From an uncultured Candidatus Saccharibacteria bacterium (GTDB lineage Bacteria; Patescibacteriota; Doudnabacteria; UBA920; O2-02-FULL-48-8): a stretch of DNA of 64,000 bases. Shown here piece after piece: positions 1,090 to 49,402 of this stretch (within the stretch, counting starts at the first letter, position 1; every line of letters begins with the position of its first letter). A model generated the notes under the pieces. That model did not search any database. It was not told the DNA's origin and saw only the letters and a program-made list of their open reading frames with translations. Where the stretch lies: the NCBI GenBank assembly GCA_964405805.1, contig CAYOPE010000001.1, forward strand, positions 4,898-68,897. The letters are read 5' to 3'. The position numbers and the translations under genes were made by a program.

Positions 1090-2448
1090 GTGTTTGATTT
1101 AAGACCTCGGAAACCAAATCTAAAGTACTCAGACAAACTGGCGAAAACTTTGAAGCAGCCCGTAGTACCGGCTTTGAAAGAAGACGAAACAACAGAGGTT
1201 GTTCCAGTTGAGCGAGTCAACCAAACTCAGAAAATTGTTGCTGAGAGCAAATTTAAAACTGAATTAGAAAAAGGTGCAAGCCTTTCAATTGTCAATTTGG
1301 TTCAGAGCTTGATTGATCTGGCTTACAGTCTGCATGTTTCAGACATCCACATTGATCCAGAGCTGGATGCAGTGCGCACCAGGTTTCGTATCGATGGCGT
1401 GCTGCAGGATGCTTCCGTTCTTCCAAAAAATATTCATGCCGAAGTCATTAGTCGTATAAAAATTTTGGCAGGCTTGCGCACTGATGAGCATCAGGTCGCG
1501 CAGGATGGCAGATTTCATATTCAGCTGACTTCTGGCTCAGCTGATGTCCGCGTCTCGATTGCACCGACTTATTATGGTGAAAACGCTGTGTTGCGACTGC
1601 TTTCTGATTCAGCAGAAGAATTCACTTTAGAAAGTCTCGGATTTAGCATTCCGAATCAGACGAAGATCATCAATGCCATTCGCAAACCTTATGGCATGAT
1701 TCTGGCCACAGGCCCGACAGGTAGTGGTAAGACCACGACTCTCTATACTTTGGTCAAGATGCTGAATACAAAAGAGACCTCCATCATCACGGTGGAAGAT
1801 CCGATCGAGTATGCCATCTCTGGCATCAATCAGATAGGCGTGAATAACCGCACTGGTCTAACTTTTGCCAATGGCCTGCGCTCGATTTTGCGTCAGGATC
1901 CGAATATAATTATGGTAGGGGAAATTCGTGACGCGGAAACTGCGGGGATTGCGGTAAATACGGCGCTCACTGGCCACTTATTGCTCTCGACTTTGCATAC
2001 TAACGATGCAGCCACGACTTTGCCCAGACTCCTGGACATGAAAATCGAACCATACTTGATTGCCTCTACTGTAAATGTGGCAATCGGCCAGCGACTAGTG
2101 CGCAAAATTTGCGAGCACTGCAAGCTACGCAAAAAATTGACCACCACTGAATCGCGAAGCTTTGCCGAAGTCCTGCCCATGAAAAAATTTCCAGCCAATG
2201 TCATGGTTTATCAGGGCCAAGGCTGCGAAGAATGTAATTTTTCCGGCTACAGAGGACGAATCGGCATTCACGAAGTGCTGGTGGTGGACAATCCGATTCG
2301 TGAAGCAGTGCTACGTAAAGCTTCTTCTGCAGAACTACGCGATATCGCGATTAGTTCTGGTATGACGACTATGGTCGAGGATGGCTTGGAAAAAGTTTTT
2401 AAGGGTGTGACTACGATTGCCGAAATTTTAAGAATGCTTCATGAATAG
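1090..2448 (+). CDS. pilB: Type IV pilus assembly ATPase (PilB/GspE family)
   Basis: Walker A GPTGSGKTTT, GspE-type Asp/His boxes and a C-terminal tetracysteine CEHC...CEEC. First gene of the pilus operon. Confidence 0.9.
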   Translation: MFDLRPRKPNLKYSDKLAKTLKQPVVPALKEDETTEVVPVERVNQTQKIVAESKFKTELEKGASLSIVNLVQSLIDLAYSLHVSDIHIDPELDAVRTRFRIDGVLQDASVLPKNIHAEVISRIKILAGLRTDEHQVAQDGRFHIQLTSGSADVRVSIAPTYYGENAVLRLLSDSAEEFTLESLGFSIPNQTKIINAIRKPYGMILATGPTGSGKTTTLYTLVKMLNTKETSIITVEDPIEYAISGINQIGVNNRTGLTFANGLRSILRQDPNIIMVGEIRDAETAGIAVNTALTGHLLLSTLHTNDAATTLPRLLDMKIEPYLIASTVNVAIGQRLVRKICEHCKLRKKLTTTESRSFAEVLPMKKFPANVMVYQGQGCEECNFSGYRGRIGIHEVLVVDNPIREAVLRKASSAELRDIAISSGMTTMVEDGLEKVFKGVTTIAEILRMLHE

Positions 2449-3487
2449 AATTACGCTGAAAGATCAGATAATTTTTGTTAAGCGCTTAGCTTTGATTGTC
2501 CGATCCGGAACCCCGCTCCTGCAAGGCTTGCAAATGCTCAACAGTCAAGCCGGCTCGAAAAAAATGGGCAAAATTTTGCCGCAAGTAATATATGATGTGG
2601 AGCATGGACAATATTTGGCAGTTGCGTTGGGCAGATTTAGAAAAATTTTCGGTGAATTTGCTATTAACATCATTGAAATCGGTGAAGTTTCAGGGACACT
2701 GCCGGAAAATCTGGATTATCTGGCAGAAGAACTCAAAAAGAAACAAACTTTGCGCCGCAAAGTCATCGGCGCTATGGTTTATCCGGTATTCATGGTCATT
2801 TCGACTTTTGGCGTCACGATTTTATTGACGATTTATTTGTTTCCGAAAATTTTACCAATTTTTAAGAGTGTGAATTTCAGTTTGCCCATTACTACACGTC
2901 TCCTGATTTTTATCAGCACCCTACTGATCAATCACGGCACGCTTTTTTTGATTCTGGCCATGCTTTTAGTCATCGTTTTTCTGCTGCTCATGAGAATTCC
3001 GCCTGTGAAATATTTGTATCAGAGAATTATGCTTTCTGTACCAGTGCTCGGTAACCTCGTTCAGACTTATAACCTGGCCAATATTTGTCGCACCCTCGGT
3101 CTGCTGCTAAAAAGTAATGTCGCGATCGTGCGCACGACCAAAATTACTTCACGCACGACCAATAATTTGGTTTATCAAACTCATTTGGGCGAGATAGCGG
3201 AGACACTTACTAAAGGCGGCCAGATTTCTGACTATATTCAAATGCATACACAGGTATTTCCGACGATTCTCACGCAAATGGTGACTATTGGTGAGCGCAC
3301 AGGAAACCTCAGTCACACTTTTTTGTACCTGGCCGACATGTATGAAGCTGAAGTGGATGAAACCACGAAAAATTTGTCCACGATTTTAGAGCCTATACTT
3401 CTGGTCCTCATGGGACTTATGGTAGGCTTTGTGGCGATTTCTATAATTACACCGATTTATGGCCTCACGCAGAGACTACACCCGTAA
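2441..3487 (+). CDS. pilC: Type IV pilus inner-membrane platform protein (PilC/GspF family)
   Basis: Two GspF-like repeats with TM segments. 8-nt overlap with the pilB stop. Confidence 0.85.
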   Translation: MNRITLKDQIIFVKRLALIVRSGTPLLQGLQMLNSQAGSKKMGKILPQVIYDVEHGQYLAVALGRFRKIFGEFAINIIEIGEVSGTLPENLDYLAEELKKKQTLRRKVIGAMVYPVFMVISTFGVTILLTIYLFPKILPIFKSVNFSLPITTRLLIFISTLLINHGTLFLILAMLLVIVFLLLMRIPPVKYLYQRIMLSVPVLGNLVQTYNLANICRTLGLLLKSNVAIVRTTKITSRTTNNLVYQTHLGEIAETLTKGGQISDYIQMHTQVFPTILTQMVTIGERTGNLSHTFLYLADMYEAEVDETTKNLSTILEPILLVLMGLMVGFVAISIITPIYGLTQRLHP

Positions 3488-3953
3488 AAATGCAAATGGA
3501 TTCACATTAGTTGAAGTCCTGATTAGCATAGGAATTTTGGGTTTGATTGCCGGTCTCGGTCTTTTTATTAGTTTTGATGTGTATCGACATGGCACTTTCC
3601 ACTCTGAACAAGGCGAGATTGTCAGCATTTTACAAAAAGCCAGAAGTCAGTCCATAAATAATATTGATCAAGTAAGACACGGGGTGCATTTTCAATCCAA
3701 TCCTTTAACTTACATTTTATTTGAATGCCCGTCAGGCACTCCACAATGCTCAAGCTATACTGCAAGTAGTTCAGATGTCTCTGTGACTGCTTCCAATAAC
3801 GTTTCTGTCACCAGTACTTTGCCCATGGATATAATTTTTTCGCAGCTAAGTGGGGATTGTATCAGCTGCGTGAGCGCGCAAACCCTAACTGTGAACAATG
3901 GGCCGAGCACCAACAGCATTACTATTAACAGCGAAGGGCGGATTGATGATTAG
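3459..3953 (+). CDS. Prepilin-type N-terminal cleavage/methylation domain protein (minor pilin-like)
   Basis: N-terminus ...KNANG|FTLVEVLISIGILGLIAG has the class III signal peptide motif G-FTLxE. Overlaps the pilC 3' end; leader is unusually long (14 aa). Confidence 0.6.
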   Translation: MASRRDYTRKNANGFTLVEVLISIGILGLIAGLGLFISFDVYRHGTFHSEQGEIVSILQKARSQSINNIDQVRHGVHFQSNPLTYILFECPSGTPQCSSYTASSSDVSVTASNNVSVTSTLPMDIIFSQLSGDCISCVSAQTLTVNNGPSTNSITINSEGRIDD

Positions 3954-5388
3954 AAATTCTGAAGACGGTGTGGCGACACTAGAAATTTTGATTGCTATGA
4001 CTATCATCATCTTGGCTGTGTCAGCCGTGATCGTCGTAGTGTTTAGTGGTCAGTCGTTTTCTGTTGACTCGCAAACTGATCAAGACGCACTCTATAAAAA
4101 CCAAACTTTACTTGAGACCGCGCGAGCCAATGCTTCAAAATCAGTGAGTTTAGTTTCTAGTCAAACTATTTCTGATCCGTTTTATTCTGGCAATCTTTCT
4201 GCTTCGGATCTAAATGTGGACGTGAGCAAACTGGTGAGCACAGCGCTGAACTGGCATACAGATGTCAGGACCCAGGCCATGGCTTCGGAGACAATTGTGG
4301 TGGATCTGAAAGCGGCACTGGGCAGCAGTGGCTGTAGTAATACGGTATCATCTGGCTGGTCCAATCCTACAATTTTAAATCCTTCGCATACGATTGATAT
4401 TGATCCGGATACATTGACGGGTATGACCTATGCTAACAATGTCGTTTATATTACCGGCAATCATTCTTCTGCGAGCAAGGACGATTTTTATACAGTAGAT
4501 GCATCTGATCCAACTTGGCCGAAGCTATATCCGAACGGACATCTAAACACGGGTCCTGGATTGGCAGCGGTCGTGGTTGCTGGGCATTACGCTTATGTAG
4601 CGAATACGAGCACCACAGCCCAGCTGCAGGTGATAGACGTCACAGATCCAGCTAATCCAGTTTATCTGTCCAGTGCCAACAGACAAGTTGCCAGTACGCA
4701 TTCGAGTGTGGGCAATTCTATTTATTATTACAAAAATACCGTGTATTTAGGGCTCACAGCCCATGGCTCAGAACCGCAGTTTGCGATTTTTGACGTAACG
4801 ACTCCGACGAATCCCATAGCAAAAGGAACATATAACCAAATCGGTCATGATGTAAATTCGATCCGAGTTAAAGACGATTACGCTTATGTTGCCAGCCCAG
4901 CTAATGAGAATATGACAATTTTAAATATTAGCAATCCGAATAGTCCGACCAGGGTCGGTGGTTTTACTCCGACGGCGCTGCCAGACAGTAATGGTGTCGG
5001 TTCAAATTACGGCGAGAGTCTATTTGTGACTGGTAACACAGCGTACCTCGGCAGAACTTATGGCACGAATGAATTTTATGTACTCAATGTAAGTACTCCA
5101 GGAAATGTTTCGGTTTCCAATAGCGCTGACTTTGGAAGCGGGAATCAAACCAGTATTAACGGAGTTATCGTTAGATCGAATTTGGTATTTACTACTACCA
5201 ATTCTGTGTTTCAAGTGCGTCAGCTATCGAATCTTAGTAGCGTATTTGGCTCTTTGACATTATCAAGCACTTCTCCTACAGGTGATTTTAATTGTAATGG
5301 TAATGTTCTGTATGTGGGAGTGCTCGGACCGAGTGGTACAAGCGGCCATGATGTCCTAAAAATTATCGGTCCAGGAGCAGGCCCATGA
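3946..5388 (+). CDS. Large pilin-like protein with LVIVD-type beta-propeller repeats (putative pilus-associated adhesin)
   Basis: Start MIRNSEDGVATLEILIAMTIIIL... is pseudopilin-like (GxxTLEI + hydrophobic helix). Body holds >=5 repeats of YAYVA(N/S)...L.V.DV(S/T).P..P (LVIVD repeat pattern). ATG overlaps the previous stop. Confidence 0.65.
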   Translation: MIRNSEDGVATLEILIAMTIIILAVSAVIVVVFSGQSFSVDSQTDQDALYKNQTLLETARANASKSVSLVSSQTISDPFYSGNLSASDLNVDVSKLVSTALNWHTDVRTQAMASETIVVDLKAALGSSGCSNTVSSGWSNPTILNPSHTIDIDPDTLTGMTYANNVVYITGNHSSASKDDFYTVDASDPTWPKLYPNGHLNTGPGLAAVVVAGHYAYVANTSTTAQLQVIDVTDPANPVYLSSANRQVASTHSSVGNSIYYYKNTVYLGLTAHGSEPQFAIFDVTTPTNPIAKGTYNQIGHDVNSIRVKDDYAYVASPANENMTILNISNPNSPTRVGGFTPTALPDSNGVGSNYGESLFVTGNTAYLGRTYGTNEFYVLNVSTPGNVSVSNSADFGSGNQTSINGVIVRSNLVFTTTNSVFQVRQLSNLSSVFGSLTLSSTSPTGDFNCNGNVLYVGVLGPSGTSGHDVLKIIGPGAGP

Positions 5389-11667: not shown

Positions 11668-11708
11668 CGCCGAAGGCGGAGACATCTCTCCTGGAAGGAG
11701 AGAAATAA
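11668..11708. repeat. Two adjacent short GC hairpins of the CTCC-loop-GGAG family
   Basis: tctccgcc-gaa-ggcggaga and tctctcc-tggaa-ggagaga. The latter recurs almost identically at 26416-26434. Confidence 0.5.
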
Positions 11709-11796: not shown

Positions 11797-11856
11797 TTTT
11801 ACCCCTCATCTGCCCTTCGGGCATCTTCTCCCGCAAGGGGAGAAGAAATAAAGAAT

Positions 11857-12585: not shown

Positions 12586-12672
12586 GATTCCTCCCCTAGA
12601 ATAGGGGAGGTTAGGAGGGGTAGATTCCAGGATCTACCACCCCCAGCCCCTCCTATTCTAGGAAGGGAGAAA
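12586..12672. repeat. 85-nt imperfect-palindromic GC-rich element R1 (supplies the SD for grpE)
   Basis: ggattcctcccctagaataggggaggttaggaggggtagattccaggatctaccacccccagcccctcctattctaggaagggaga. Near-identical copy at 62939-63021; partial copy at 26135-26172. Confidence 0.85.
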
Positions 12673-12679: not shown

Positions 12680-13147
12680 ATGCCAGACGAAATGACCTCC
12701 CCCAGCCCCTCCTTAAAAGGAGGGGAGGAACTCACAAACGAAGAACTGCTCAATAACTGGAAGCGAACAGCGGCGGATTTTGAAAATTTTAAAAAGCGCC
12801 GAGAGAGCGAGACGAAAGAATTGATTGATTATGCCAAAGAAATGACTATGCTGCGTCTCATGCCCAGCTTACAGAGCCTTGAGCAAGTGCTGAAGTATGC
12901 ACCTGACGATGAAAAGTATAAAGACTGGATCGCGGGACTCAAGGCGACTGTCATGCAGCTTGAGAAAACCATGGAAGAGCTGGGCGTGGTGAAGATTCGG
13001 ACCGTGGGCGAGCAGTTTGACCCCACTCATCACGAAGCAGTCGAAGAAAAAGAAGGCGAAAGCGGAAAAATTTTATCCGAAGTGCAGCCAGGATTTAAGT
13101 TAAATAATAAAGTAATTATCCCGGCCAAGGTGATTGTCGGAAAATAA
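12680..13147 (+). CDS. grpE: Nucleotide exchange factor GrpE
   Basis: ...AADFENFKKRRESETKE... and a C-terminal beta domain; between hrcA and dnaK. Confidence 0.88.
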   Translation: MPDEMTSPSPSLKGGEELTNEELLNNWKRTAADFENFKKRRESETKELIDYAKEMTMLRLMPSLQSLEQVLKYAPDDEKYKDWIAGLKATVMQLEKTMEELGVVKIRTVGEQFDPTHHEAVEEKEGESGKILSEVQPGFKLNNKVIIPAKVIVGK

Positions 13148-15308: not shown

Positions 15309-15317
15309 TTAATCGGC

Positions 15318-15395
15318 TACGAAGTACGAAATGGGTACGAAAATACGAAAGGTTATCTCTGTTCGTACTTTCGTAAAGATTCGTAATTTCGTAGA
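15318..15395. repeat. TACGAAA inverted-repeat element, copy 1
   Basis: gtacgaaaatacgaaa...gttcgtactttcgta...attcgtaatttcgtaga. Second copy at 50157-50225. Confidence 0.7.
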
Positions 15396-15403
15396 TAAAT
15401 CCC

Positions 15404-16504: not shown

Positions 16505-17614
16505 ATGGCAAATGATTATTATCAAACTTTAGGCGTGTCGAAAACTGCCAATGCTGACGAGATCAAGCGGGCGTATCGGAAATTGGCGCACGAGCATCAT
16601 CCGGATAAAAACAAAGGCGATGAAGCTAAGTTTAAAGAGATAAACGAAGCGTATCAGGTGCTGTCCAATCCAGATAAGCGCTCGCAGTATGATCGGTTTG
16701 GTGCAGCAGGTTTTTCCGCCGGAGGCGGACCAGCCTCTGGCTGGAATCCGCAGGATTTTGCAGGTTTTAATGTTGATTTCGAAGACGCGTTCGATATTTT
16801 TTCTGACATGTTTGGCGGAGGCGGTCGAAGAACAAGACGCGAGAGAGGCGTGGACCTCGAAATGGAACTCAATCTTACTTTTGATGAAGCAGTTTTTGGT
16901 GTCGAGAAAGAATTGACTCTGGAAAAAACTGATGCTTGCGAGCACTGCAAAGGATCAGGCGCAGAAGTCGGCAGCAAAATTTCCACTTGCCCGAAATGTC
17001 ATGGCCAGGGACAAATCCGAGTTACTCGCAGGACTATCCTAGGACAGATGCAAACAGTCACGACCTGTGATAAGTGCGATGGATCCGGAAAAGTTCCAGA
17101 AAAAGCTTGTCCGGTCTGTAATGGAAGCGGGCAGAAGAGACGAGTCAAGACTTTGACAGTAAAAATTCCAGCTGGAGTGGAAAATGGCCAGCGTATTAGG
17201 ATTGCAAACGAAGGCGAAGTGGGCTACAAAGGTTCAAATTTTGGCGATTTGTATTTGCGCTTGCATGTCTCTGGCAAAAAAGGCTTTAAGCGTGAGGGTG
17301 CCGATATTTATTCTGAAAGCGGCATCAGTTTTTACCAGGCTGCACTGGGGACTACTATTGATGTGCAGACGGTTGACGGCATTATCAAGATGAAAGTCCC
17401 AGCAGGCACGCAATCAGAGAAAGTTTTCCGCCTGAAAGGCAAAGGAGCTCCAGTTCTGAATAGTTCTGGTCGAGGAGACCATTTTGTCACAGTTCACGTC
17501 ATCACACCCACGAAACTTACCAAGAAAGAAAAAGATTTATTTAAAAAACTCGCTGACGAATCCGGCGAGTCAGTAGAAGTCGACGAAGGCTTCTGGAGTA
17601 GATTTACATCGTGA
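16505..17614 (+). CDS. dnaJ: Chaperone DnaJ
   Basis: J domain with HPD (EHHPDKN), Gly-rich linker and four CxxCxGxG zinc repeats. Confidence 0.95.
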   Translation: MANDYYQTLGVSKTANADEIKRAYRKLAHEHHPDKNKGDEAKFKEINEAYQVLSNPDKRSQYDRFGAAGFSAGGGPASGWNPQDFAGFNVDFEDAFDIFSDMFGGGGRRTRRERGVDLEMELNLTFDEAVFGVEKELTLEKTDACEHCKGSGAEVGSKISTCPKCHGQGQIRVTRRTILGQMQTVTTCDKCDGSGKVPEKACPVCNGSGQKRRVKTLTVKIPAGVENGQRIRIANEGEVGYKGSNFGDLYLRLHVSGKKGFKREGADIYSESGISFYQAALGTTIDVQTVDGIIKMKVPAGTQSEKVFRLKGKGAPVLNSSGRGDHFVTVHVITPTKLTKKEKDLFKKLADESGESVEVDEGFWSRFTS

Positions 17615-18122
17615 GCAAATATATAAAAGGAGTGCTAGGTCTTTATTTGATTTTGTTGCCAATTCTTTTTATTTATGATCGGCAAGTTTTTCGCTTTGGA
17701 TTTTTAGGGACAGACACCAAAGCTTTTTTATTTTCGCAGTTACAATTTTGGTTTTTTATTTAGGTTTGAAATTTTTTCGAATCCAAAATTCGATCAATCT
17801 AAATATTAAAATTATAATTTACGCAATTTTTATTGCGATTGCTGAGGAAGCGATATTCCGAGGAGCGATTCAAGGATATTTACAGACCGAAATGAATATA
17901 GTCAGCGCTATCCTGCTTTCAGCCTTAATTTTTGGACTGGCGCATTTATTTAATGGGGCCAAAGGTTTAACTATTCAAAAATGGAACTGGCGACTCGTGG
18001 GTTTAACTTTTTTGGCAGGTATCCCTTTAGGATTGCTATTTGCATTCACTCAGAGTTTACTGTTACCCGCAATATTACATACGATTTTTATCGTTGGAAT
18101 AAAAAATTTTTCGAGTATATAA
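17611..18122 (+). pseudogene. CPBP (CAAX/Abi) family intramembrane metalloprotease, apparently frameshifted
   Basis: The C-terminal 124-aa ORF (frame 3) has EEAIFRG and FGLAHLFNG motifs. A hydrophobic N-terminal segment VSKYIKGVLGLYLILLPILF... sits in frame 1 upstream. The frames are separated by poly-T tracts around 17727-17760. Confidence 0.5.
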
Positions 18123-18123
18123 A

Positions 18124-18165
18124 AAAATCGGCTGGTCTTGGAATTTGCAGTCTTCCAAAACCAGC
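18124..18165 (-). terminator. 40-nt hairpin terminator, copy 1 of 3 identical copies
   Basis: aaaatcggctggtcttggaatttgcagtcttccaaaaccagc. On the minus strand it is a stem-loop followed by GATTTTT; downstream of the 18191-18958 gene. Confidence 0.65.
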
Positions 18166-18190
18166 GGACAATCAGCTGTGCCGCAGCCGA

Positions 18191-18958
18191 TTAGTGAGTC
18201 CCAGGCGACTTCGTTTTCGGTATTCGACCGCCGAGTTCGAGAATGTGTCCCGCTTGTTCAGTGGTCAATCCGAGGACTGAAGGTTTGAGCTGCTCTGTGG
18301 TCAGCCATTTGTATAGATTTTGAAATGCGTAAGAGAACCTTGCGAGGAGCGTCACGTCATCATTGTTGGTGCTTTTTTCTTCTTGAAGCCAGGCTTGGTA
18401 GGTTTCTGGACCCTTTTTGGCTGCTTCGACCAGCCTGATTTCTTTGAGCTCTTCGTCGTCCGCGATATTCCATTCTCTCTTCAAGTCAACCTGAAGCTCT
18501 TTTTTCAGTTCTTCGATCCTATAGGACAGGTCGCTGTTGCTTTGGGTCCACAGAGGAATCGGATTGTCGTAGCTGAATGCTTCTCGAGGCTCAAACGTGC
18601 AGTGAACGAAGTCCTCATACCTGTCGGCGTATCTCATCCTGATCGTCAACTTTTCGAGTAGAGTTCCACCGTTTTTTTTCCGAAGCCCATTCAGTTCTTG
18701 AGCCGTGGTTTTGAGACTTTCGAACAGGGTCTTGTCTTCGTTCGTTTTTTGTACGAGCACGGACGTCGCGGCATAGCGATCGAAGTACGAACAGATGCTC
18801 TCGCTGAGCGGTTCGGTTCGGACATTCTGTAGAAAGATTGCCAGCCGCGCGATCATCTGCTCACGTTCTTTGTCTTTTCCCTGCGCCGAGGTTGGCACGG
18901 CAGCGAACCCGACGAACAACAGAACCAGCGCGATCAGTCCGATCAGTCGTTTCGTCAT
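18191..18958 (-). CDS. Secreted hypothetical protein, paralog 1 (signal peptide MTKRLIGLIALVLLFVGFAAVPTSAQ)
   Basis: Signal peptide plus a 229-aa mature part. Shares a conserved ICSYFDRY / FCSYYERW motif with the neighbouring paralog. Confidence 0.7.
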   Translation of the reverse strand: MTKRLIGLIALVLLFVGFAAVPTSAQGKDKEREQMIARLAIFLQNVRTEPLSESICSYFDRYAATSVLVQKTNEDKTLFESLKTTAQELNGLRKKNGGTLLEKLTIRMRYADRYEDFVHCTFEPREAFSYDNPIPLWTQSNSDLSYRIEELKKELQVDLKREWNIADDEELKEIRLVEAAKKGPETYQAWLQEEKSTNNDDVTLLARFSYAFQNLYKWLTTEQLKPSVLGLTTEQAGHILELGGRIPKTKSPGTH

Positions 18959-19015
18959 GTCATCCTCCCTTCGGATGTGCAGGAGTTATAGCATGAAGAC
19001 GATGCTTTGGTCAAT
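18881..19015 (-). repeat. 5' module, copy 1: ~137 nt identical to 19722-19857
   Basis: Identical sequence covers the signal-peptide coding region, RBS (GGAGGATGACATG in reverse complement) and ~57 nt of 5' UTR. Confidence 0.85.
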
Positions 19016-19016
19016 A

Positions 19017-19059
19017 AAAATCGGCTGGTCTTGGAATTTGCAGTCTTCCAAAACCAGCC
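19017..19059 (-). terminator. 40-nt hairpin terminator, copy 2
   Basis: Identical to 18124-18165; downstream of the 19074-19799 gene. Confidence 0.65.
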
Positions 19060-19073
19060 GTTGCTGCCTGCTT

Positions 19074-19799
19074 CTATGAGCTGGGTTTTCTGAATCCTGG
19101 CGCGGGCATGCTGTGACATTCCATGATTCGCTCAAGTTCCTGCGGTTTCAATGACCAGATCGATGGCGAAACTTGAAAGCGATGATCAGTCATCAGATAC
19201 CAGATCCAGAATGATTCTTTGCAACCTTTTTCGCCTGACTTCCACTGGTTGCGCACGTTCTGAATGTCTTTTATAGACTGCTGGTACAGGTGATCGTTCA
19301 CTTCTTCGATTGACGGAATGTCTTTTGACGAGTAGCTAAGAGCGCTTTCTTTTATCAGGCGATTGAGTAGCAGCGCTACCTCGTACACATTGTCTGTGTA
19401 CAAGGAAAGATCTTCCACGGTTCCTGGTGAAAGTGGCGTTTGAAATCTGCACGTGATCGGGAGGCCATATCCGTACAGTTCGCGTGGTAGTTTTTTGGCC
19501 AATTCACTAGCGGCTGTGCGCTTTGCCAATTCTGCACCGAGATCAGAAACTCCCACGCTTTTCTGCAATTCCTGGTTGAGATTGAGACGGTCGAACAGAA
19601 CCTCGGCTGCTCGCCATCGTTCGTAATAGCTGCAGAATTCGTTGGTTAGGGGTTGCAGTTCCAGGTTCGCGACGATGTTTTTGAGATACGCCACTTGATC
19701 GAACTTCTCTCCGTTACAGCATTGCGCCGAGGTTGGCACGGCAGCGAACCCGACGAACAACAGAACCAGCGCGATCAGTCCGATCAGTCGTTTCGTCAT
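19074..19799 (-). CDS. Secreted hypothetical protein, paralog 2 (identical signal peptide, divergent mature part)
   Basis: The first 26 aa and upstream DNA are identical to paralog 1; the mature 215 aa have diverged. Confidence 0.7.
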   Translation of the reverse strand: MTKRLIGLIALVLLFVGFAAVPTSAQCCNGEKFDQVAYLKNIVANLELQPLTNEFCSYYERWRAAEVLFDRLNLNQELQKSVGVSDLGAELAKRTAASELAKKLPRELYGYGLPITCRFQTPLSPGTVEDLSLYTDNVYEVALLLNRLIKESALSYSSKDIPSIEEVNDHLYQQSIKDIQNVRNQWKSGEKGCKESFWIWYLMTDHRFQVSPSIWSLKPQELERIMECHSMPAPGFRKPSS

Positions 19800-19876
19800 G
19801 TCATCCTCCCTTCGGATGTGCAGGAGTTATAGCATGAAGACGATACTTTGGTCAAAATTTAATTATAAGCTATAAT

Positions 19877-20526
19877 TGTGGAGGGCGCCCCTCCACATAT
19901 GCAATATCGAGATTATAAACAATTTTTTGAAGGCGGAGTTTATCATATTTATAGTCGCGGCCATAACAAAATGGCAGTTTTTCGAGATACTGAAGACTAT
20001 AAATTTTTCCTGCAGCGCCTAGCGGAAATATTAAGCCTTAAGCCTTCTAAAAGCAGATGGCTGAGACCTTTGCCTAAGGGTTCGTTTACGATTTTATGCT
20101 ATTGCCTGATGCCGAACCATTTCCATTTTATAATTCAGCAAGAAACCAAGCTTCCGGTTTCTAAAATAATAGGGAAGTTGTTGACTAGCTACGGGATTTA
20201 TTTTAATAAAAAGTACCAGCAAGTCGGAACAATATTTCAGGATAGATTTATGTCTAAAGAAATTAATAATGATGAGTATTTAGTTCCTTTATCTGCATAC
20301 ATTCATAAGAATCACGCTAAATTTCTTTCTTGGAGATTTTCCAGTTTGGATGACTATATTAAAGGCGACAAAGAACTAATCGTTGACTCGACTTTGATAC
20401 TAAGTATGTTCAACAAAGATCGTCATCGATATTATAAATACATAAAAAGTTATAATAAAACTAAGGAAGATTTGATTACGGATTTAAAATTCGACGAATA
20501 AACGATGTGGAGGGCGCCCCTCCACA
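19877..20526 (+). mobile_element. REP-flanked RAYT (IS200/IS605-like Y1 transposase) unit
   Basis: Identical 21-bp perfect palindromes TGTGGAGGGCGCCCCTCCACA at 19877-19897 and 20506-20526 bracket the transposase gene. Confidence 0.75.
19899..20501 (+). CDS. REP-associated tyrosine transposase (RAYT / IS200-like TnpA)
   Basis: HuH motif LMPNHFHFII and catalytic Tyr in SAYIHKNH (YIHxNP-like); ~200 aa. Confidence 0.8.
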   Translation: MQYRDYKQFFEGGVYHIYSRGHNKMAVFRDTEDYKFFLQRLAEILSLKPSKSRWLRPLPKGSFTILCYCLMPNHFHFIIQQETKLPVSKIIGKLLTSYGIYFNKKYQQVGTIFQDRFMSKEINNDEYLVPLSAYIHKNHAKFLSWRFSSLDDYIKGDKELIVDSTLILSMFNKDRHRYYKYIKSYNKTKEDLITDLKFDE

Positions 20527-20528
20527 TA

Positions 20529-20572
20529 AAAAATCGGCTGGTCTTGGAATTTGCAGTCTTCCAAAACCAGCC
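20529..20572 (-). repeat. 40-nt hairpin element, copy 3 (abuts the 3' REP)
   Basis: Identical to copies at 18124 and 19017. Confidence 0.6.
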
Positions 20573-20782
20573 GTGGTCAGCCAGAAATTTGAGCGTCCTA
20601 CGTTCGGATTCGTTCGAGCTTTCGCTGCCCTCGCCTGAGAGGTTGATCAAGATTGCTCAAGAGGTGGGTGGGCAGTTCGACAGGCTTGCCGCCGTTTTTG
20701 AATACAAGCCTGCCGTCTCGCCACTCCAATTCTTTCCCTGGGTGGCGCATCTGAGCCCAACGCACCGCGAAGTTGCGGTCTC

Positions 20783-21081
20783 TCATTCAGTCCTCCATGG
20801 CAGGCATCGCATCCAGGCAGCCTGTGGAATTTCGACCCGAACATCCGGGTGTTCTTCGAGGAAGAGCTTCAGGCTTTCGGGAAGAAGCCCTCCTCGCAGG
20901 CGCTCGCCAATGGCTGCGGGTGTGACGTCGCGCAGCAGAATTCCGATCATGGCTTCGAGGCCATGGATTCGCCGCACGTCACAGTCGCACTTTTCGTCGT
21001 GACATTTGTGCGTGATGCTTGTCGCCATTTCACCTCGGATCGCAGACACCACGGCCAGATCGCTTGCAGTGTAGAACATCG
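20783..21081 (-). CDS. Hypothetical protein in GC-rich segment
   Basis: ATG (MFYTASD...) 8 nt after AAGGAGG on the minus strand. Contains HKCHDEKCDC. Confidence 0.4.
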
Positions 21082-21324
21082 CTCCGTTCCTCCTTTGTAC
21101 CAAAAAAGCCGCCTTCTTTCGAAGGCGGCTTAAGATTGGCAAATAAAGTTATCTATGCCAAAAAGTCACCTTCGGCTGAAGGCTTCTTGGCTTTCTTGCT
21201 TTGTGACAGAATTAAATTCATAGATAACGTAAAGATATGTTAGAGGAATTGGTAAGGATTGTCAAACACAGAGTGGGTGGAAACGTCACGCGAACGTGGC
21301 GTCTCCACCCGTATCTGCTCTGCA

Positions 21325-21639
21325 TTACTCAGGTGACCGATACGGGAAGTGTGTTTTGTGCGTCCAGTTGCTGCCCATGGTCTTTTTGTAGAGCAACACG
21401 CCTGTGCCCCACTCAGTGACGAAGACGTCGCTTCGGTACTGCTTACCATCGAAGCAGCCGATCTCCCAGGTCAGCGGCGGGTAGAGTTCGCCGCCGCCGA
21501 TCGGTCGATCCTCGCGACTGCTGTCCACGCACACCACGCGGATCCCATGTTCCTTGAACACGATCTCGTTCGGCGCTGCCAACACCCAGAGAAGGAAACC
21601 AATGAGCGCCACGAGCATTGCTTTCTTCAGAATTTCCAT
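21325..21639 (-). CDS. Hypothetical small secreted protein in GC-rich segment
   Basis: MEILKKAMLVALIGFLLWVLAAP is signal-peptide-like; RBS GAGGTG. Confidence 0.4.
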   Translation of the reverse strand: MEILKKAMLVALIGFLLWVLAAPNEIVFKEHGIRVVCVDSSREDRPIGGGELYPPLTWEIGCFDGKQYRSDVFVTEWGTGVLLYKKTMGSNWTHKTHFPYRSPE

Positions 21640-21830
21640 CGCGCACCTCGCAGAAGAGTTGTAAACTACAGAGCATCTGTTTCCGAGCAATTTCGCCAGG
21701 AATTTGGCAAGTTTGCTACAGACGCAGATAACTATAGTTGATTCTAAATTATCTACTTTCTGGGACTTTTGTCAAATGCCGAGATCTTGAAAAAAATCCC
21801 AAAATCTGTATAATACCTAGGCCCTTATGA

Positions 21831-21905
21831 GGGTGCGTAGCTCAGTGGTAGAGCACCTGCCTTTTAAGCAGAGGGTCGCGCGTTCGATCCGCGCCGCACC
21901 CACCA
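21831..21905 (+). tRNA. tRNA-Lys (anticodon UUU as read)
   Basis: 75-nt cloverleaf: acceptor GGGTGCG/CGCACCC, D-arm GCTCAGTGGTAGAGC, anticodon loop CUUUUAA, T-arm GCGCG-TTCGATC-CGCGC, 3' CCA. Confidence 0.8.
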
Positions 21906-21911
21906 AGAATC

Positions 21912-22385
21912 ATGAATGACGAATCATATTTTTTACGACGAATAATTCAGCCAGGACTTCTGGGGCTCATGGACGGCTCAGTCTCAACCCTTGCCCCATT
22001 GTTTGCTGCTGCCTTTGCCACGCGAAACCCGCATGTGGCTTTTTTGATCGGCACATCTGCTGCCACTGGCGCTGCTATTTCTATGGCCTTTGCCGAAGGC
22101 TTGTCTGACAGTGGGGAGCTCACAGGGCGAGGACAACCAGTCATGCGTGGCTCGATCACGGGCCTGATGACTTTTTTTGGTGGCATTCTTCACACATTAC
22201 CATTTTTACTTCGCGATTTGCATGAGGCATTGTATCTTGCATATTTTATAGTTGGCATTGAGCTGATCTGCATTGCATTTATCCGATACCGATACATGAA
22301 AATGAATTTTTGGTGGTCCATGGTGCAGGTGGTGGTCGGCGGGGTACTAGTTTTTCTGGCAGGTTTCTTGATCGGGAGTAGCTAA
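21912..22385 (+). CDS. VIT1/CCC1 family membrane protein
   Basis: Gly/Ala-rich TM helices ...LMDGSVSTLAPLFAAAFA... typical of the VIT family. Confidence 0.6.
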   Translation: MNDESYFLRRIIQPGLLGLMDGSVSTLAPLFAAAFATRNPHVAFLIGTSAATGAAISMAFAEGLSDSGELTGRGQPVMRGSITGLMTFFGGILHTLPFLLRDLHEALYLAYFIVGIELICIAFIRYRYMKMNFWWSMVQVVVGGVLVFLAGFLIGSS

Positions 22386-23068
22386 TGCTGGAAAGACTTC
22401 AAAAATACATTTCCCAGGCAGGGATAGCCTCGCGCAGACACGCTGAGGAGCTGATTGTGGCTGGAAAAGTTAAGGTTAATGGCCAAGTTGTAAAGCAACT
22501 TGGGACCAAAGTTGATCCTGCGAAAGATCAGGTAGAAGTTGAAGGCAAAAAAATTCGTTTGCAGAAGCTGGTTTACCTTATGATGAACAAGCCGAAGCGG
22601 ACTATGACTACCAGGCACGATCCGCGGGCGCGAAAAACCGTGTTTGAATTGCTGCCACCGAACCTCCGAAACGTGGTCTGGCCAGTGGGCCGACTCGACT
22701 TTGATACCGAAGGACTTTTGCTGTTTACAAACGACGGTGATCTGACACAGATGTTGACTCATCCGTCCAATGAACACGAAAAAGAATACGAAGTTGAGCT
22801 AGACAAAGAATTATCTCCTGGGCGAATTGAGAAGATCGAAACCGGCATGATGATTGATGGCAAAAAAACTGCGCCGAGTACCATTCGTACGAATGGTACT
22901 ACAGTGTATATCACGATTCATGAGGGCATGAATCGGCAGGTCAGGAAAATGTTTGGCAGCCTCGGCTACTCGGTTCGAAACCTCAGGCGCATCCGAATTG
23001 GCAAATTAAAACTGAATGATTTACAATTAGGGCAGTACAAAATTATTGACAGAAAGGATATAATTTAA
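22385..23068 (+). CDS. rRNA pseudouridine synthase (RsuA/RluB family)
   Basis: S4 domain ...ASRRHAEELIVAGKVKVNG... and catalytic VWPVGRLDFDTEGLLLFTNDGDL. Confidence 0.85.
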   Translation: MLERLQKYISQAGIASRRHAEELIVAGKVKVNGQVVKQLGTKVDPAKDQVEVEGKKIRLQKLVYLMMNKPKRTMTTRHDPRARKTVFELLPPNLRNVVWPVGRLDFDTEGLLLFTNDGDLTQMLTHPSNEHEKEYEVELDKELSPGRIEKIETGMMIDGKKTAPSTIRTNGTTVYITIHEGMNRQVRKMFGSLGYSVRNLRRIRIGKLKLNDLQLGQYKIIDRKDII

Positions 23069-25352: not shown

Positions 25353-26435
25353 ATGAACCGAGGTTTCTGGGATAAACTAAAAAAACCGATAATGGCTCTC
25401 GCGCCCATGGCGGATGTGACGGATGCGGTTTTCAGGCAGATAATCGCCAAGTACGGCAAGCCTGCCCGCCATGCCTCGGACGAGGCTCATCAACAAGGTG
25501 TGGCAGGCGGGCCTGACGTATTTTTTACAGAATTCGTGTCCACGGACGGGCTTATGTCAGAAGGACGCAAGCGATTGCTGGTGGATTTTTGGTATGGCGA
25601 AAACGAGCATCCGATAGTGGCGCAGATTTTCGGATCCGTACCAGAAAAATTTGAGCAAGTAGCGAAGATGATCGTGGAGCTGGGGTTTGACGGCGTGGAT
25701 ATAAACATGGGCTGCCCAGTAAAAAAAGTGCTCAATCAGAATTCCTGCTCAGCCCTGATCCGAACGCCGAAGCTGGCGCAAGAAATCGTGGAAGCGACCA
25801 AGCGCGGTGCTGGCAATCTGCCAGTATCCATAAAAACCCGAATTGGATTTAACAAAATTGACATTGAGAACTGGATCCCAACGCTTCTTCAGACGAAGCC
25901 AGCGGCACTGACTGTGCATTTGCGCACTGTGAAAGAAATGTCTTTGGTCCCAGCTCACTGGGAGCTCATGCCGAGGATTGTGGAGCTTGTAAATCAGCAG
26001 GCTCCGGAAGATCGCCCTCTGATTCTGGGCAATGGAGATGTGAAGACGGTGACAGAAGCCGAAGAAAAATGCGCGCAGACAGGTGCGGACGGGGTGATGA
26101 TAGGGCGAGGGATCTTTGGCAACCCGTGGCTTTTCTCCTCCCCTAGAATAGGGGAGGTTGGGAGGGGTAGAACCTATACTCCGTCAGTATCCGAAAAACT
26201 TCGAGTCATGATTGAGCACACGAAACTGTTTGAAGAGAAATTTAAAGGCTTAAAAAATTTTGACATCATGAAAAAGCACTACAAAGCCTATGTCAACGGC
26301 TTTGATGGCGCGAAGGAACTGCGCACGAAATTGATGGAAGCGAAAACGGCTGCTGAAGTAGAAAGTTTAGTTCAAGAATTTCTAGTTGCCACCTCTCTGC
26401 CGCTGCGCGGCATCTCTCCTGGGAGGAGAGAATAA
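25353..26435 (+). CDS. dus: tRNA-dihydrouridine synthase
   Basis: ALAPMADVTD...MGCP...IGRG motifs. Carries an in-frame 36-nt copy of the R1/R2 repeat (26135-26172, peptide SSPRIGEVGRGR). Confidence 0.88.
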   Translation: MNRGFWDKLKKPIMALAPMADVTDAVFRQIIAKYGKPARHASDEAHQQGVAGGPDVFFTEFVSTDGLMSEGRKRLLVDFWYGENEHPIVAQIFGSVPEKFEQVAKMIVELGFDGVDINMGCPVKKVLNQNSCSALIRTPKLAQEIVEATKRGAGNLPVSIKTRIGFNKIDIENWIPTLLQTKPAALTVHLRTVKEMSLVPAHWELMPRIVELVNQQAPEDRPLILGNGDVKTVTEAEEKCAQTGADGVMIGRGIFGNPWLFSSPRIGEVGRGRTYTPSVSEKLRVMIEHTKLFEEKFKGLKNFDIMKKHYKAYVNGFDGAKELRTKLMEAKTAAEVESLVQEFLVATSLPLRGISPGRRE

Positions 26436-26544: not shown

Positions 26545-26586
26545 CCTCCTCTTAATCTCCTCCTTAAAAGGAGGAGAGATAACTGC
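26545..26586. repeat. 42-nt GC-rich palindromic repeat, copy 1 (exact second copy at 58004-58045)
   Basis: cctcctcttaatctcctccttaaaaggaggagagataactgc; contains the hairpin ctcctcc-ttaaaa-ggaggag. Confidence 0.85.
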
Positions 26587-49365: not shown

Positions 49366-49402
49366 GAGTGAATTATACCCCTCACCCGGCGCTTCGCGCC
49401 AC

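What the first reader, a model, noticed from the sequence alone, without database searches (positions are those of the whole stretch)
19877..20526. Complete REP/RAYT unit: IS200-like Y1 transposase flanked by identical 21-bp perfect palindromes
TGTGGAGGGCGCCCCTCCACA occurs on both sides of a 200-aa ORF with HuH (NHFHF) and a YIHxN tyrosine motif, which is the hallmark of REP-associated tyrosine transposases. Its palindrome shares the GGAGGG/CCCTCC core with the other repeat families in the window, so this RAYT may be the enzyme that spreads them. It sits in an accessory island next to tRNA-Lys.
Basis: partly seen in the sequence, partly recalled or inferred. Interest (0 to 1): 0.55.

Follow-up and report, generated by a model that had tools for sequence, protein, structure and literature searches.

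The report
Hairpin-flanked RAYT-like transposase cassette
A 671-bp insert in a Candidatus Doudnabacteria (CPR) genome carries one HUH/tyrosine "RAYT-like" DNA nuclease gene bracketed by two identical DNA hairpins. It is an ordinary new member of a large known superfamily, and a duplicated "empty site" nearby shows the whole unit is an insertion.

Summary
TGTGGAGGGCGCCCCTCCACA occurs exactly twice in 64 kb, at 19877-19897 and 20506-20526, bracketing a 200-aa ORF (19899-20501) with intact HUH (NHFH) and Tyr (YIHKN) motifs. It is a 9-bp stem with a CGC loop, not a perfect palindrome.

The protein passes Pfam Y1_Tnp and misses NCBIfam's RAYT equivalog cutoff. Its high-confidence model is closest to E. 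coli TnpA_REP (4ER8), then ISDra2/IS608/IS200 transposases.

The host is Candidatus Doudnabacteria. The five closest homologues examined (63-72% identity) carry the same TGTGGAGG/CCTCCACA stems on both sides although synonymous sites are saturated. Across the wider family, 22 of 68 loci have the same locus-specific hairpin on both sides, against 0.26 expected.

A paralogous intergenic module 841 bp upstream preserves the uninterrupted site. This delimits a 671-bp insert (19856-20526) with no target duplication, lying between a terminator and a promoter.

The hairpin is not shown to be repetitive in this genome. Related MAGs hold only 1-3 solo copies. The window's other GGAGGG/CCCTCC palindromes have the opposite arm polarity, so the idea that this enzyme spreads them is unsupported.

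Verdict: a new member of a known kind, a single-copy REPtron-like cassette of class-2 TnpA_Y1. Interest is modest.

The parts
19856..20526 (+). Whole inserted cassette (671 bp, boundary ambiguous by 1 nt), GC 0.347 against 0.47 for the rest of the window. No target-site duplication and no terminal inverted repeats other than the hairpins.
   Evidence: The empty-site paralogue 18882-19061 aligns to 19723-19855 plus 20529-20574.
19856..19876 (+). 21-nt AT-rich leader ending in TATAAT (19871-19876). Together with TGGTCA (19849-19854) in the host flank it forms the best sigma-70-like match in the region.
   Evidence: Promoter scan gives 10 of 12 matches with a 16-nt spacer. The leader is unique in the window. 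TATAAT lies at or within 5 nt before the left hairpin in 4 of the 5 closest relatives.
19877..19897 (+). Left hairpin TGTGGAGGG-cgc-CCCTCCACA. It ends 1 nt before the ATG, and its 5' arm contains GGAGG.
19899..20501 (+). 200-aa HUH/Y1 nuclease gene (TnpA_Y1 class 2, RAYT-like) with H74/H76 and Y134. The motif is Y-I-H-K-N-H, where the family has N-P.
20506..20526 (+). Right hairpin, identical 21-mer in the same orientation (10-bp stem 20505-20527), 4 nt after the stop codon. Its 3' end coincides with the insert boundary and with the end of nucleotide homology to relatives.
18882..19061 (-). Paralogous uninterrupted ('empty') site: the promoter/5'UTR/signal-peptide module D2 (18882-19014) directly abuts the terminator module D3 (19016-19061).
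19723..19855 (-). D2 copy to the left of the insert: the 5' end, 5' UTR and promoter of minus-strand gene B (19074-19799). It is 99% identical to 18882-19014. Read on the minus strand it carries TTGACC-N17-TATAAC.
   Evidence: plus direct reading of the sequence
20529..20574 (-). D3 copy to the right of the insert: a minus-strand intrinsic terminator (15-bp stem, -26.2 kcal/mol, followed by a U-tract), 100% identical to 19016-19061.
17612..22393 (.). Variable region between DnaJ and the RluB homologue that holds the cassette, the two paralogous secreted-protein genes, tRNA-Lys (21831-21905) and a VIT1-like gene.

Best explanation
The locus is a single-copy, REPtron-like cassette of the IS200/RAYT (TnpA_Y1) superfamily in a Candidatus Doudnabacteria genome. 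It encodes a 200-aa class-2 (RAYT-type) HUH/tyrosine single-strand DNA nuclease. The gene is bracketed by two copies of that enzyme's cognate DNA hairpin.

Inferred mechanism, by analogy with TnpA_REP and IS608/ISDra2 TnpA: when the hairpins extrude on single-stranded DNA, the enzyme binds them. It uses the His-x-His pair (H74, H76) to hold a divalent metal and Tyr134 to cut next to the hairpin, forming a 5'-phosphotyrosine link, and can then rejoin the strands.

In this genome the hairpin-to-hairpin unit plus a 21-nt promoter-bearing leader is a discrete 671-bp insertion. It sits in the few nucleotides between an intrinsic terminator and the -35 box of the neighbouring gene, and it has no target duplication. 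This is the footprint expected of HUH 'peel-and-paste' chemistry.

What is shown: the gene family and fold, intact catalytic motifs under purifying selection, hairpins that are conserved or co-vary with the gene across the family, the insertion boundaries, single-copy status in the data available, and different chromosomal positions in different lineages.

What is inferred: binding, cleavage positions, and that the enzyme itself moved the cassette.
For: - Family and fold: Pfam Y1_Tnp 41.6 bits, cutoff 23. HUH, Tyr134, Gln114 and the N-terminal RDYK are invariant in 38 homologues. The AF2 model has pLDDT 91.9. The best PDB match is 4ER8 TnpA_REP at E 1.8e-7, followed by the ISDra2, IS608 and IS200 transposases. 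A profile search of PDB sequences finds only 4ER8.
- Selection: pN is 0.16-0.20 against pS of 0.76-0.87 (saturated) versus five relatives.
- Hairpins in close relatives: the stems TGTGGAGG/CCTCCACA are retained on both sides of the gene in those five lineages while the loops vary.
- Hairpins family-wide: 22 of 68 loci carry the same perfect hairpin upstream and downstream, with a different sequence in each locus, against 0.26 expected when loci are mismatched.
- Insertion: D2 and D3 are contiguous at 18882-19061 and separated by 671 bp at 19855/20527.
- Unit limits: nucleotide homology to relatives runs from 19866-19877 (19842 for the most divergent relative) to 20526-20527, i.e. roughly hairpin to hairpin.
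- Copy number: the exact protein is on a single contig. There is no second homologue in the window. Homologue P0048 occupies one and the same context in all 24 contigs read.
- Position differs between lineages: the DnaJ-tRNALys interval (window, L108), next to TGT (L001, L109), and next to CysS (L002).
- Solo copies of the same hairpin exist in related MAGs, in tight intergenic spaces.
Against: - There is no biochemical evidence.
- Only 64 kb of the source genome could be examined, so genome-wide copy number of the hairpin is unknown.
- The protein scores below NCBIfam's RAYT cutoff.
- It has His instead of the nearly invariant Pro after the Tyr motif.
- The 21-nt leader inside the insert is not conserved in the relatives. 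In L108 a tRNA-Lys promoter copy abuts the left hairpin within 2 nt. The left end of the mobile unit is therefore uncertain, and the move may not have been a clean transposase event.
- The right boundary falls at the last base of the hairpin stem. From memory, in IS608 the right cleavage site lies about 10 nt beyond the hairpin.
- The near-identity of D2 and D3 may reflect gene conversion stopping at the heterology, so the insertion need not be recent.
- WIN and L108 both hold the gene in the DnaJ-tRNALys interval, with RAYT divergence (71%) about equal to DnaJ divergence (69%). This fits long vertical residence rather than recent mobility.
Confidence: 0.72

Rival explanations
1. It is a classical REP/RAYT system. 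A domesticated RAYT disseminates an abundant family of REP or REPIN elements through this genome, including the window's other GGAGGG/CCCTCC palindromes.
For: The gene is RAYT-like and flanked by its own palindrome. The hairpin starts with T-GTGG, which fits the GT[AG]G tag of canonical REPs (PMC6006769). A few solo copies exist in related MAGs. The window is rich in GGAGG-containing palindromes.
Against: - There are no further copies in 64 kb even at 3 mismatches or with relaxed arms.
- Related MAGs have only 1-3 solo copies, whereas RAYT groups 2 and 3 are associated with 57-140 occurrences of the flanking 16-mer (PMC5581495).
- The other palindromes have the opposite arm polarity and lack the TGTGG foot. 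They were absent from all 103 loci held when the search was run, 88 of which carry homologues.
- The NCBIfam RAYT equivalog cutoff is missed.
Confidence: 0.1
2. It is an autonomous IS200-type insertion sequence: a minimal tnpA-only IS of about 670 bp that is multi-copy and currently transposing.
For: - It is a discrete insertion with no target duplication.
- The subterminal hairpins are in the same orientation on one strand, as at IS200/IS605 ends.
- The left hairpin lies 21 nt inside the left boundary; from memory, the equivalent distance in IS608 is about 19 nt.
- Its size is close to that of IS200.
- Its GC is lower than the host's.
- Its position differs between lineages.
Against: - The protein is not class 1. 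It has Y---N(P) rather than Y---Q, is 200 aa rather than about 150, and has a C-terminal tail with the SS motif (PMC6006769 Table 1).
- The exact protein is on one contig only, and the nearest relative is 72% identical, so no near-identical copies are seen anywhere.
- Homologues sit at one fixed locus across many samples.
- Seven of the 22 loci with a shared hairpin have the two hairpins in inverted orientation.
Confidence: 0.12
3. The hairpins are RNA-level or transcriptional control elements of the gene, such as RBS or 5'-UTR occlusion on the left and a terminator or stabiliser on the right. On this view they are not DNA substrates, and the insertion arose by unrelated recombination.
For: The left hairpin contains GGAGG and ends 1 nt before the ATG. 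As RNA it folds at -15.7 kcal/mol. TATAAT directly precedes it. From memory, IS200 uses a 5' stem-loop to occlude its RBS. The scan flags the right hairpin as terminator-like on the minus strand.
Against: - The same sequence is kept on both sides of the gene, and the pair changes together from lineage to lineage. Independent regulatory hairpins have no reason to do that.
- Solo copies occur away from any homologue.
- Neither copy is followed by a T-run on the + strand.
- A start site a few nt downstream of TATAAT would fall inside the 5' arm, so the mRNA could not form the full hairpin (inference).
Confidence: 0.06

Closest known systems
E. coli TnpA_REP (RayT/YafM) and its REPtron; TnpA_Y1 subclass 2.2, Bertels group 2 (PDB 4ER8)
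   Same: HUH/Y1 fold; it is the best structural match and the only PDB sequence-profile match. It shares the Y---N(P)-type tyrosine motif, is a single-copy gene, and is flanked by cognate palindromes.
   Different: Identity is only 19%, and the NCBIfam equivalog cutoff is missed. E. coli REPs have an unpaired GTAG foot and a bulged stem and number in the hundreds. Here the stem is a perfect 9 bp with GTGG paired inside it, and copies are few. The flanking copies here are direct repeats rather than inverted REP pairs.
TnpA_Y1 subclass 2.1 (Bertels group 1 RAYTs; 'TIRYT' of Di Nocera et al.), PMC6006769 Table 1 and PMC3733652
   Same: The motif pattern matches: NH[YF]H (here NHFH), FQ in place of WQ/WE (here FQD), Y[IV]H.NP (family YIHxNP), a C-terminal extension with conserved Ser-Ser (S148 S149), and a length of about 200-240 aa.
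   Different: Subclass 2.1 genes are reported as not flanked by REP-like hairpins, or as flanked by long TIRs with a GGGGWSAS motif. This CPR family is flanked by short perfect hairpins. Assignment rests on motifs only; the published HMMs were not available.
Stenotrophomonas maltophilia group 3 REPtron (PMC8266576)
   Same: The REP is of nearly identical geometry: 23 nt, an 8-bp perfect palindrome and a 3-nt loop. That enzyme cuts at a CT dinucleotide outside the hairpin. A related Marinomonas enzyme also cuts at CA, and one of the two possible junction registers here ends in CA.
   Different: The S. maltophilia REP has an unpaired GTAG guide, is abundant, and belongs to a different protein subclass (2.5). 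No cleavage data exist for the present family.
IS200 / IS608 / ISDra2 (IS200/IS605 family, TnpA_Y1 class 1)
   Same: The element is bounded by subterminal hairpins on one strand, has no inverted terminal repeats and no target duplication, has a left boundary about 20 nt outside the left hairpin, and is about 0.7 kb like IS200. The fold is shared.
   Different: The protein class differs (Y---Q, about 150 aa). Those elements are multi-copy with near-identical copies and often carry tnpB. Their right cleavage site lies several nt beyond the hairpin (from memory), whereas here the boundary is at the end of the hairpin.

Membership tests
Y1_Tnp / HUH single-strand DNA transposase superfamily (Pfam PF01797) | Profile HMM score above the gathering cutoff | tested here: met
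   41.6 bits against 23, covering profile positions 40-121 of 121.
Y1_Tnp / HUH superfamily | His-hydrophobic-His motif and a single catalytic Tyr on the following helix, conserved in homologues | tested here: met
   N73 H74 F75 H76 and Y134 are invariant in 38 sequences.
Y1_Tnp / HUH superfamily | HUH fold (beta-sheet with helices, Tyr on a C-terminal helix) | tested here: met
   Model pLDDT 91.9. The Foldseek top 30 are all TnpA_REP, ISDra2, IS608 or IS200-type transposases, with E from 1.8e-7 to 7e-4.
TnpA_Y1 class 2 (RAYT / TnpA_REP type; Quentin et al. 2018) | Tyr motif Y-x-x-x-N-P, as opposed to Y-x-x-x-Q in IS200 class 1 | tested here: inconclusive
   The family consensus YIHxNP meets it. 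This protein has YIHKNH: N138 is kept and P139 is replaced by His, as also in P0010. It is clearly not the class 1 Q motif.
REP-associated tyrosine transposase, NCBIfam NF047646 (equivalog) | Score at or above the curated cutoff of 80 bits | tested here: not met
   42.9 bits. All 38 family members match the model but at sub-threshold significance, best E 1.1e-17.
RAYT / REPtron | Gene flanked on both sides by its own palindromic element | tested here: met
   Identical 21-mers lie 1 nt before the ATG and 4 nt after the stop. The same holds in the five closest relatives and in 22 of 68 family loci against 0.26 by chance.
RAYT / REPtron | The flanking palindrome is repetitive and dispersed in extragenic space of the same genome | tested here: inconclusive
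   There are no extra copies in the 64-kb window. The source genome was not hit in the scan of GTDB representative genomes. Related MAGs have 1-3 solo copies each, far below classical REP numbers.
RAYT / REPtron | Single copy per genome at a stable locus, without IS-like duplicates | tested here: met
   The exact protein is on 1 contig. There is one homologue in the window. P0048 is in one context in 24 contigs and P0011 in one context in 10. The whole source genome was not available.
Canonical REP | 5' GT[AG]G tetranucleotide at the foot of the hairpin | tested here: inconclusive
   GTGG is present at positions 2-5, but it is base-paired with CCAC inside the stem ('double foot'-like) rather than forming an unpaired foot. 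The foot is not conserved in the wider family, where GTGA, GTCA, ACAA and TGCA occur.
IS200/IS605 insertion sequences (TnpA_Y1 class 1) | Y---Q motif, core-only protein of about 150 aa, several near-identical copies per genome | tested here: not met
   The motif is Y---N, the protein is 200 aa with a C-terminal tail, and the nearest relative anywhere is 72% identical.
IS200/IS605 insertion sequences | Element ends marked by subterminal hairpins on the same strand, with no target-site duplication | tested here: met
   The hairpins are direct copies. The empty-site comparison shows a clean 671-bp insertion without duplication.
IS200/IS605 insertion sequences | Cleavage tetranucleotides complementary to guide tetranucleotides 5' of each hairpin | not testable with these tools
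   By eye, TCAA/TAAT on the left partly fits the IS608 pairing rule as I remember it, and CACA/ACGA on the right does not. The boundary is ambiguous by 1 nt and no cleavage data exist.
TnpA_Y1 subclass 2.1 (group 1 RAYT / TIRYT) | Motifs NH[YF]H, FQ, Y[IV]H.NP and a C-terminal SS-containing extension; no REP hairpins next to the gene | tested here: inconclusive
   The protein motifs fit (against PMC6006769 Table 1). The 'no flanking hairpins' trait does not fit. The published subclass HMMs were not available.

The most novel reading that the evidence does not exclude
In CPR bacteria, class-2 (RAYT-type) TnpA_Y1 genes might still behave as autonomous hairpin-bounded mini-transposons. The whole hairpin-gene-hairpin unit would move occasionally into terminator/promoter gaps of very compact genomes, leaving only a handful of solo hairpins. 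That would place them between IS200-type insertion sequences and fully domesticated RAYTs with large REP populations. Their end geometry would also be distinctive, with the right end at the last base of the hairpin and the left end about 21 nt outside it.
Probability: 0.2. Interest if true: 0.5.

Novelty: new member of a known kind. Interest (0 to 1): 0.3.

Why it matters
RAYT/REP systems have mostly been described in Proteobacteria, Cyanobacteria and Bacteroidetes. Two targeted searches of the held literature, one of them aimed at Patescibacteria, found no description of them in that group.

This locus adds three things. A large CPR-associated branch exists: 1761 clusters at 50% identity score E<=1e-30. 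It has the gene-plus-cognate-hairpin architecture. And there is one case where an internal empty site fixes the limits of the unit to within 1 nt.

The locus is therefore a convenient substrate for testing how class-2 TnpA_Y1 enzymes choose cleavage sites, and whether such genes can move themselves. It does not change the picture of what these systems are.

Tried and rejected
- Cross-phylum transfer. The low GC of the cassette (0.347 against 0.47) and the CPR best hits first suggested transfer from CPR into another phylum. This was rejected. DnaK in the window is 90-93% identical to Doudnabacteria DnaK, so the host is itself CPR. Low GC relative to flanks is a family-wide trait, seen in 29 of 30 loci.
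- Genome-wide count of the hairpin in the source genome.
- Single-sequence search of PDB sequences found nothing relevant. Only the profile search and the fold search did.
- Plasmid tblastn returned only distant hits (35% identity or less) annotated 'transposase', which were not informative for subclass assignment.
- Link to the other GGAGGG repeats. Their polarity is opposite, and none was found in the 103 loci held at that point.
- TATAAT directly upstream of the hairpin as a family-wide rule, or as evidence of promoter-targeted insertion. A -10-like hexamer close upstream of the hairpin was found in only 4 of 23 wider-family loci, so it is a trait of the TGTGGAGG subfamily only.
- IS608-style guide/cleavage pairing at the two boundaries. 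By eye the fit is partial on the left and absent on the right, so it was not used as evidence.
- D3 as a terminator. The simple scan did not flag it, but RNA folding shows a 15-bp stem followed by a U-tract.
- Rfam found only the two tRNAs in the window.
Full report
**1. The observation**

The 21-mer TGTGGAGGGCGCCCCTCCACA is present exactly twice in the 64-kb window, at 19877-19897 and 20506-20526, both in the + orientation. Allowing three mismatches adds nothing, and shuffles give 0.00 matches. Looser searches for either arm, or for GGAGG..CCTCC hairpins, also return only these two sites.

It is not a perfect palindrome. The three central bases (CGC) are not self-complementary, so it is a 9-bp stem with a 3-nt loop, and the two copies are direct repeats. 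As single-stranded DNA each folds at about -10 kcal/mol, with z between -3.3 and -4.4.

Between them lies a 200-aa ORF (ATG 19899, stop at 20499-20501) with MPNHFHF and SAYIHKNH. The left hairpin ends 1 nt before the ATG. The right one starts 4 nt after the stop.

**2. The protein**

- Pfam Y1_Tnp is matched above threshold (41.6 against 23 bits), over the part of the profile that holds the HUH and Tyr motifs.
- NCBIfam's REP-associated tyrosine transposase model is the only NCBIfam hit, but it scores well below its cutoff (42.9 against 80 bits).
- A database search found 719 homologues. The best are 63-72% identical, and those that carry names are from Candidatus Doudnabacteria and Paceibacterota.
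- In an alignment of 38 of them, N73-H74-F75-H76, Y134, N138, Q114 and an N-terminal R-D-Y-K are invariant.
- The window protein has His where the family has a nearly invariant Pro after the Tyr motif (YIHKNH against YIHxNP).
- An AlphaFold model built on this alignment is confident (pLDDT 91.9).
- Its best match among solved structures is E. coli TnpA_REP bound to a REP hairpin (4ER8, E 1.8e-7). The ISDra2, IS608 and IS200 transposases follow.
- The sequence profile finds only 4ER8 in the PDB (E 0.068).
- Against five relatives, non-synonymous differences are 0.16-0.20 per site while synonymous sites are saturated at 0.76-0.87. The gene is therefore under purifying selection.
- A profile search of 1.84 billion cluster representatives gives 1761 clusters at E<=1e-30 and 17,065 at E<=1e-10, so this is a large family.

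**3. The host**

DnaK in the window is 90-93% identical to DnaK of Candidatus Doudnabacteria, so the host is itself a CPR/Patescibacteria bacterium.

The cassette's GC (0.347) is well below the window's (0.47). The same is true of homologues in their own contigs: 29 of 30 are lower than their flanks, by a mean of 7 points. Low GC is therefore a family trait and not evidence of a recent foreign origin.

**4. The unit is an insertion**

Two tandem minus-strand genes (18191-18958 and 19074-19799) encode proteins that are 31% identical. They nevertheless share a 133-nt module covering the first 25 codons, the 5' UTR and the promoter (D2: 18882-19014 and 19723-19855, 99% identical).

The region also holds three copies of a 46-nt element, D3 (18123, 19016 and 20529; 96-100% identical). 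On the minus strand D3 folds into a 15-bp hairpin of -26.2 kcal/mol followed by a U-tract, i.e. an intrinsic terminator.

Upstream of the first gene, D2 and D3 are contiguous (...CTTTGGTCAA|TAAAAATCGG...). Upstream of the second gene they are separated by 671 bp, 19856-20526.

The boundary is ambiguous by one nucleotide. There is no target duplication. The only other difference is one extra A in a homopolymer run that also varies in the third D3 copy.

The insert consists of four parts:
- a 21-nt AT-rich leader ending in TATAAT;
- the left hairpin;
- the gene;
- the right hairpin, whose last base is the insert boundary.

Read on the minus strand, the insertion point lies in the 1-4 nt between the terminator's U-tract and the TTGACC -35 box of the neighbouring gene, so neither signal is disrupted. 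On the + strand the same nearly palindromic sequence (TGGTCA) together with the cassette's TATAAT gives the best promoter-like match in the region, 10 of 12.

Nucleotide homology between this cassette and those of four relatives begins at 19866-19877 in three of them (19842 in the most divergent, L109) and ends at 20526-20527. The conserved unit is therefore roughly hairpin to hairpin.

One caution on timing. Near-identity of D2 and D3 could be maintained by gene conversion that stops at the heterology. The insertion is therefore well delimited but not necessarily recent.

**5. The hairpins belong to the gene**

The five closest relatives examined (63-72% protein identity, from different contigs and samples) keep TGTGGAGG...CCTCCACA on both sides of the gene. 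Their loops differ (cgc, gcg, acgga, atgc, acgg), and synonymous sites are saturated.

In more distant homologues the hairpin sequence is different, but it is again the same on the two sides of each gene. Examples are TACAAAGGGcgcCCCTTTGTA, CCTGCAGGGCcagGCCCTGCAGG and TGCTACCGGGTacgACCCGGTAGCA.

Under a strict test (perfect stems of at least 7 bp, inner 7 bp identical), 22 of 68 loci qualify, against 0.26 when upstream and downstream regions of different loci are paired. Fourteen pairs are direct and seven inverted. Most of the shared hairpins listed have a purine-G-G, sometimes plus one more base, next to the loop.

This co-variation is the signature of a protein and its DNA site. Independent regulatory hairpins would not be expected to show it.

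**6. Is it repetitive?**

In the window it is not. The scan of GTDB representative genomes did not hit the source genome.

The pattern TGTGGAGGGNNNCCCTCCACA gave 13 stretches across 185,579 genomes:
- One Doudnabacteria MAG has the two copies flanking its homologue plus three solo copies. Two of these lie in tight gaps between genes, and one lies inside an ORF.
- A Yanofskybacteria MAG has one copy after its homologue, one beyond the adjacent region that I read as RNase P RNA (from its GAGGAAAGTCCGAGC motif), and one elsewhere.
- Another Patescibacteria MAG has two solo copies.
- A Chloroflexia MAG and a Spirillospora genome have two each.

Two or more hits in a genome of 1-11 Mb are far beyond chance for 18 specified bases. 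The numbers are nevertheless tiny beside classical REP families.

Homologues are single-copy and positionally stable within a species. P0048 is in one context in 24 contigs and P0011 in one context in 10.

Positions differ between lineages:
- between DnaJ and tRNA-Lys in the window and in L108;
- next to TGT in L001 and L109;
- next to CysS in L002.

The window and L108 share the DnaJ-tRNALys neighbourhood. Their RAYT divergence (71%) is about equal to their DnaJ divergence (69%), which fits long vertical residence there.

**7. The other GGAGGG repeats**

A census of perfect hairpins in the window (stem of at least 8 bp) lists 43. About fourteen have a CT-rich 5' arm and an AG-rich 3' arm, for example CCCCTCCTTaaAAGGAGGGG and CCTCCCCTAgaaTAGGGGAGG. 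Because they are palindromic, they read this way on either strand.

The cassette's hairpin stands apart from this group by its reverse polarity (GGAGGG..CCCTCC). The others lack the TGTGG/CCACA ends and were not found in any of the 103 loci held at that point, 88 of which carry homologues. Nothing links them to this enzyme.

**8. Mechanism**

This is inferred by homology with TnpA_REP and the IS608/ISDra2 transposases (PMC8266576, PMC6006769). The enzyme should recognise the folded hairpin on single-stranded DNA. It should cut a nearby site with Tyr134, with H74 and H76 holding the metal, and then religate.

The insertion footprint is compatible with this chemistry having moved the whole unit: no duplication, hairpins subterminal on one strand, the right end at the hairpin and the left end 21 nt outside it. 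It does not prove it. The leader is not conserved among relatives. In L108 a copy of the tRNA-Lys promoter is fused 2 nt from the left hairpin, so recombination has also shaped these loci.

**9. Comparison with known systems**

By the motif table of Quentin et al. (PMC6006769) the protein is TnpA_Y1 class 2. Its motifs are NHFH, FQ, YIHxNP and an SS-containing C-terminal tail. These are closest to subclass 2.1 (Bertels group 1, the 'TIRYT' of PMC3733652). That subclass is described as lacking REP-like hairpins, so this CPR family differs from it in that respect.

It is not an IS200-class transposase. The Tyr motif is Y---N rather than Y---Q, it is 200 aa long, and there are no duplicates. It does not reach the NCBIfam threshold for the E. 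coli-type RAYT.

The hairpin's geometry resembles the 23-nt REP of Stenotrophomonas (8-bp stem, 3-nt loop; PMC8266576), but the GTGG tag is paired inside the stem.

Two searches of the held literature, one of them aimed at the candidate phyla radiation, found no description of RAYT/REP systems in that group.

**10. Verdict**

The RAYT-like reading of the gene and its hairpins is right. The 'REP' (repetitive) part and the proposed link to the other repeats are not supported.

This is a new member of a known kind. Its one useful extra is an internal empty site that fixes the limits of the unit. Interest is modest (0.3).

Noticed in passing
window 11685-11703, 11824-11846, 12590-12610, 12706-12725, 26137-26157, 26413-26431, 26556-26577, 49402-49425, 55226-55249, 55628-55652, 57613-57634, 58015-58036, 62943-62963, 63000-63020: About 14 perfect intergenic hairpins share a CT-rich 5' arm and an AG-rich 3' arm (CCTCC..GGAGG type, resembling an anti-Shine-Dalgarno/Shine-Dalgarno pairing). 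Their polarity is opposite to that of the cassette's hairpin. Their function is unknown.
   Followed up: partly
window 12588-12672, 62941-63025 (99% identical), partial copy 26135-26175: An 85-nt repeat contains two small hairpins in inverted orientation inside a larger imperfect palindrome (REPIN-like). No homologue of it was found in the other loci fetched.
   Followed up: partly
window 15317-15397 and 50154-50227: Two imperfect palindromes of about 80 nt are built from TACGAA(A)/TTTCGTA units. One lies just after dnaK and the other just upstream of the ribonucleotide reductase gene (50255). They could be a shared operator or an RNA element.
   Followed up: no
window 18123-18168, 18882-19061, 19723-19855, 20529-20574: Tandem secreted-protein paralogues are 31% identical overall, yet they share a 99-100% identical promoter/signal-peptide module and terminator. 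This suggests gene conversion or modular exchange of intergenic cassettes.
   Followed up: partly
L108 1934-1966 and 3024-3056; window 21786-21814: In a related contig the 33-nt tRNA-Lys promoter (CTTGAAAAAAAYCGCAAAATCTGTATAATGAG) is duplicated. One copy is fused 2 nt upstream of the homologue's left hairpin and the other lies in front of tRNA-Lys. The window's tRNA-Lys promoter is 96.6% identical to it.
   Followed up: partly
L010 6825-7406: In a Yanofskybacteria MAG two copies of the same hairpin bracket a region that I read as the RNase P RNA gene, from its GAGGAAAGTCCGAGC motif on the minus strand. This region lies next to the homologue. There and in two further Yanofskybacteria loci (L015, L012) the hairpin sits just upstream of a promoter-like -10 motif, TGGTATAAT in L010 and L015.
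   Followed up: no
L009 6640-6709 and L017 970-1051 (Chloroflexia MAG OY969916.1); L013, L014 (Spirillospora CP192047.1): The same TGTGGAGGG..CCCTCCACA hairpin occurs outside CPR. In the 11-Mb Chloroflexia genome it forms doublets with a second, similar hairpin about 30 nt upstream, and no homologue of the gene was seen within 8 kb. Copy numbers there are unknown, because only exact stems were searched.
   Followed up: no
loci L022-L102 (upstream and downstream hairpins listed): Most of the shared flanking hairpins listed for the family have purine-G-G, sometimes plus one base, next to the loop, with the complementary CCY opposite. The outer stem varies between lineages. This may mark a common recognition determinant plus a variable specificity part.
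   Followed up: no
L019 3554-3574: One solo copy of the hairpin in the Doudnabacteria MAG lies inside a 577-aa ORF (2386-4119, minus strand). It could be an in-frame intragenic insertion of the kind reported for REPs. The reading frame and the reality of the ORF were not checked.
   Followed up: no
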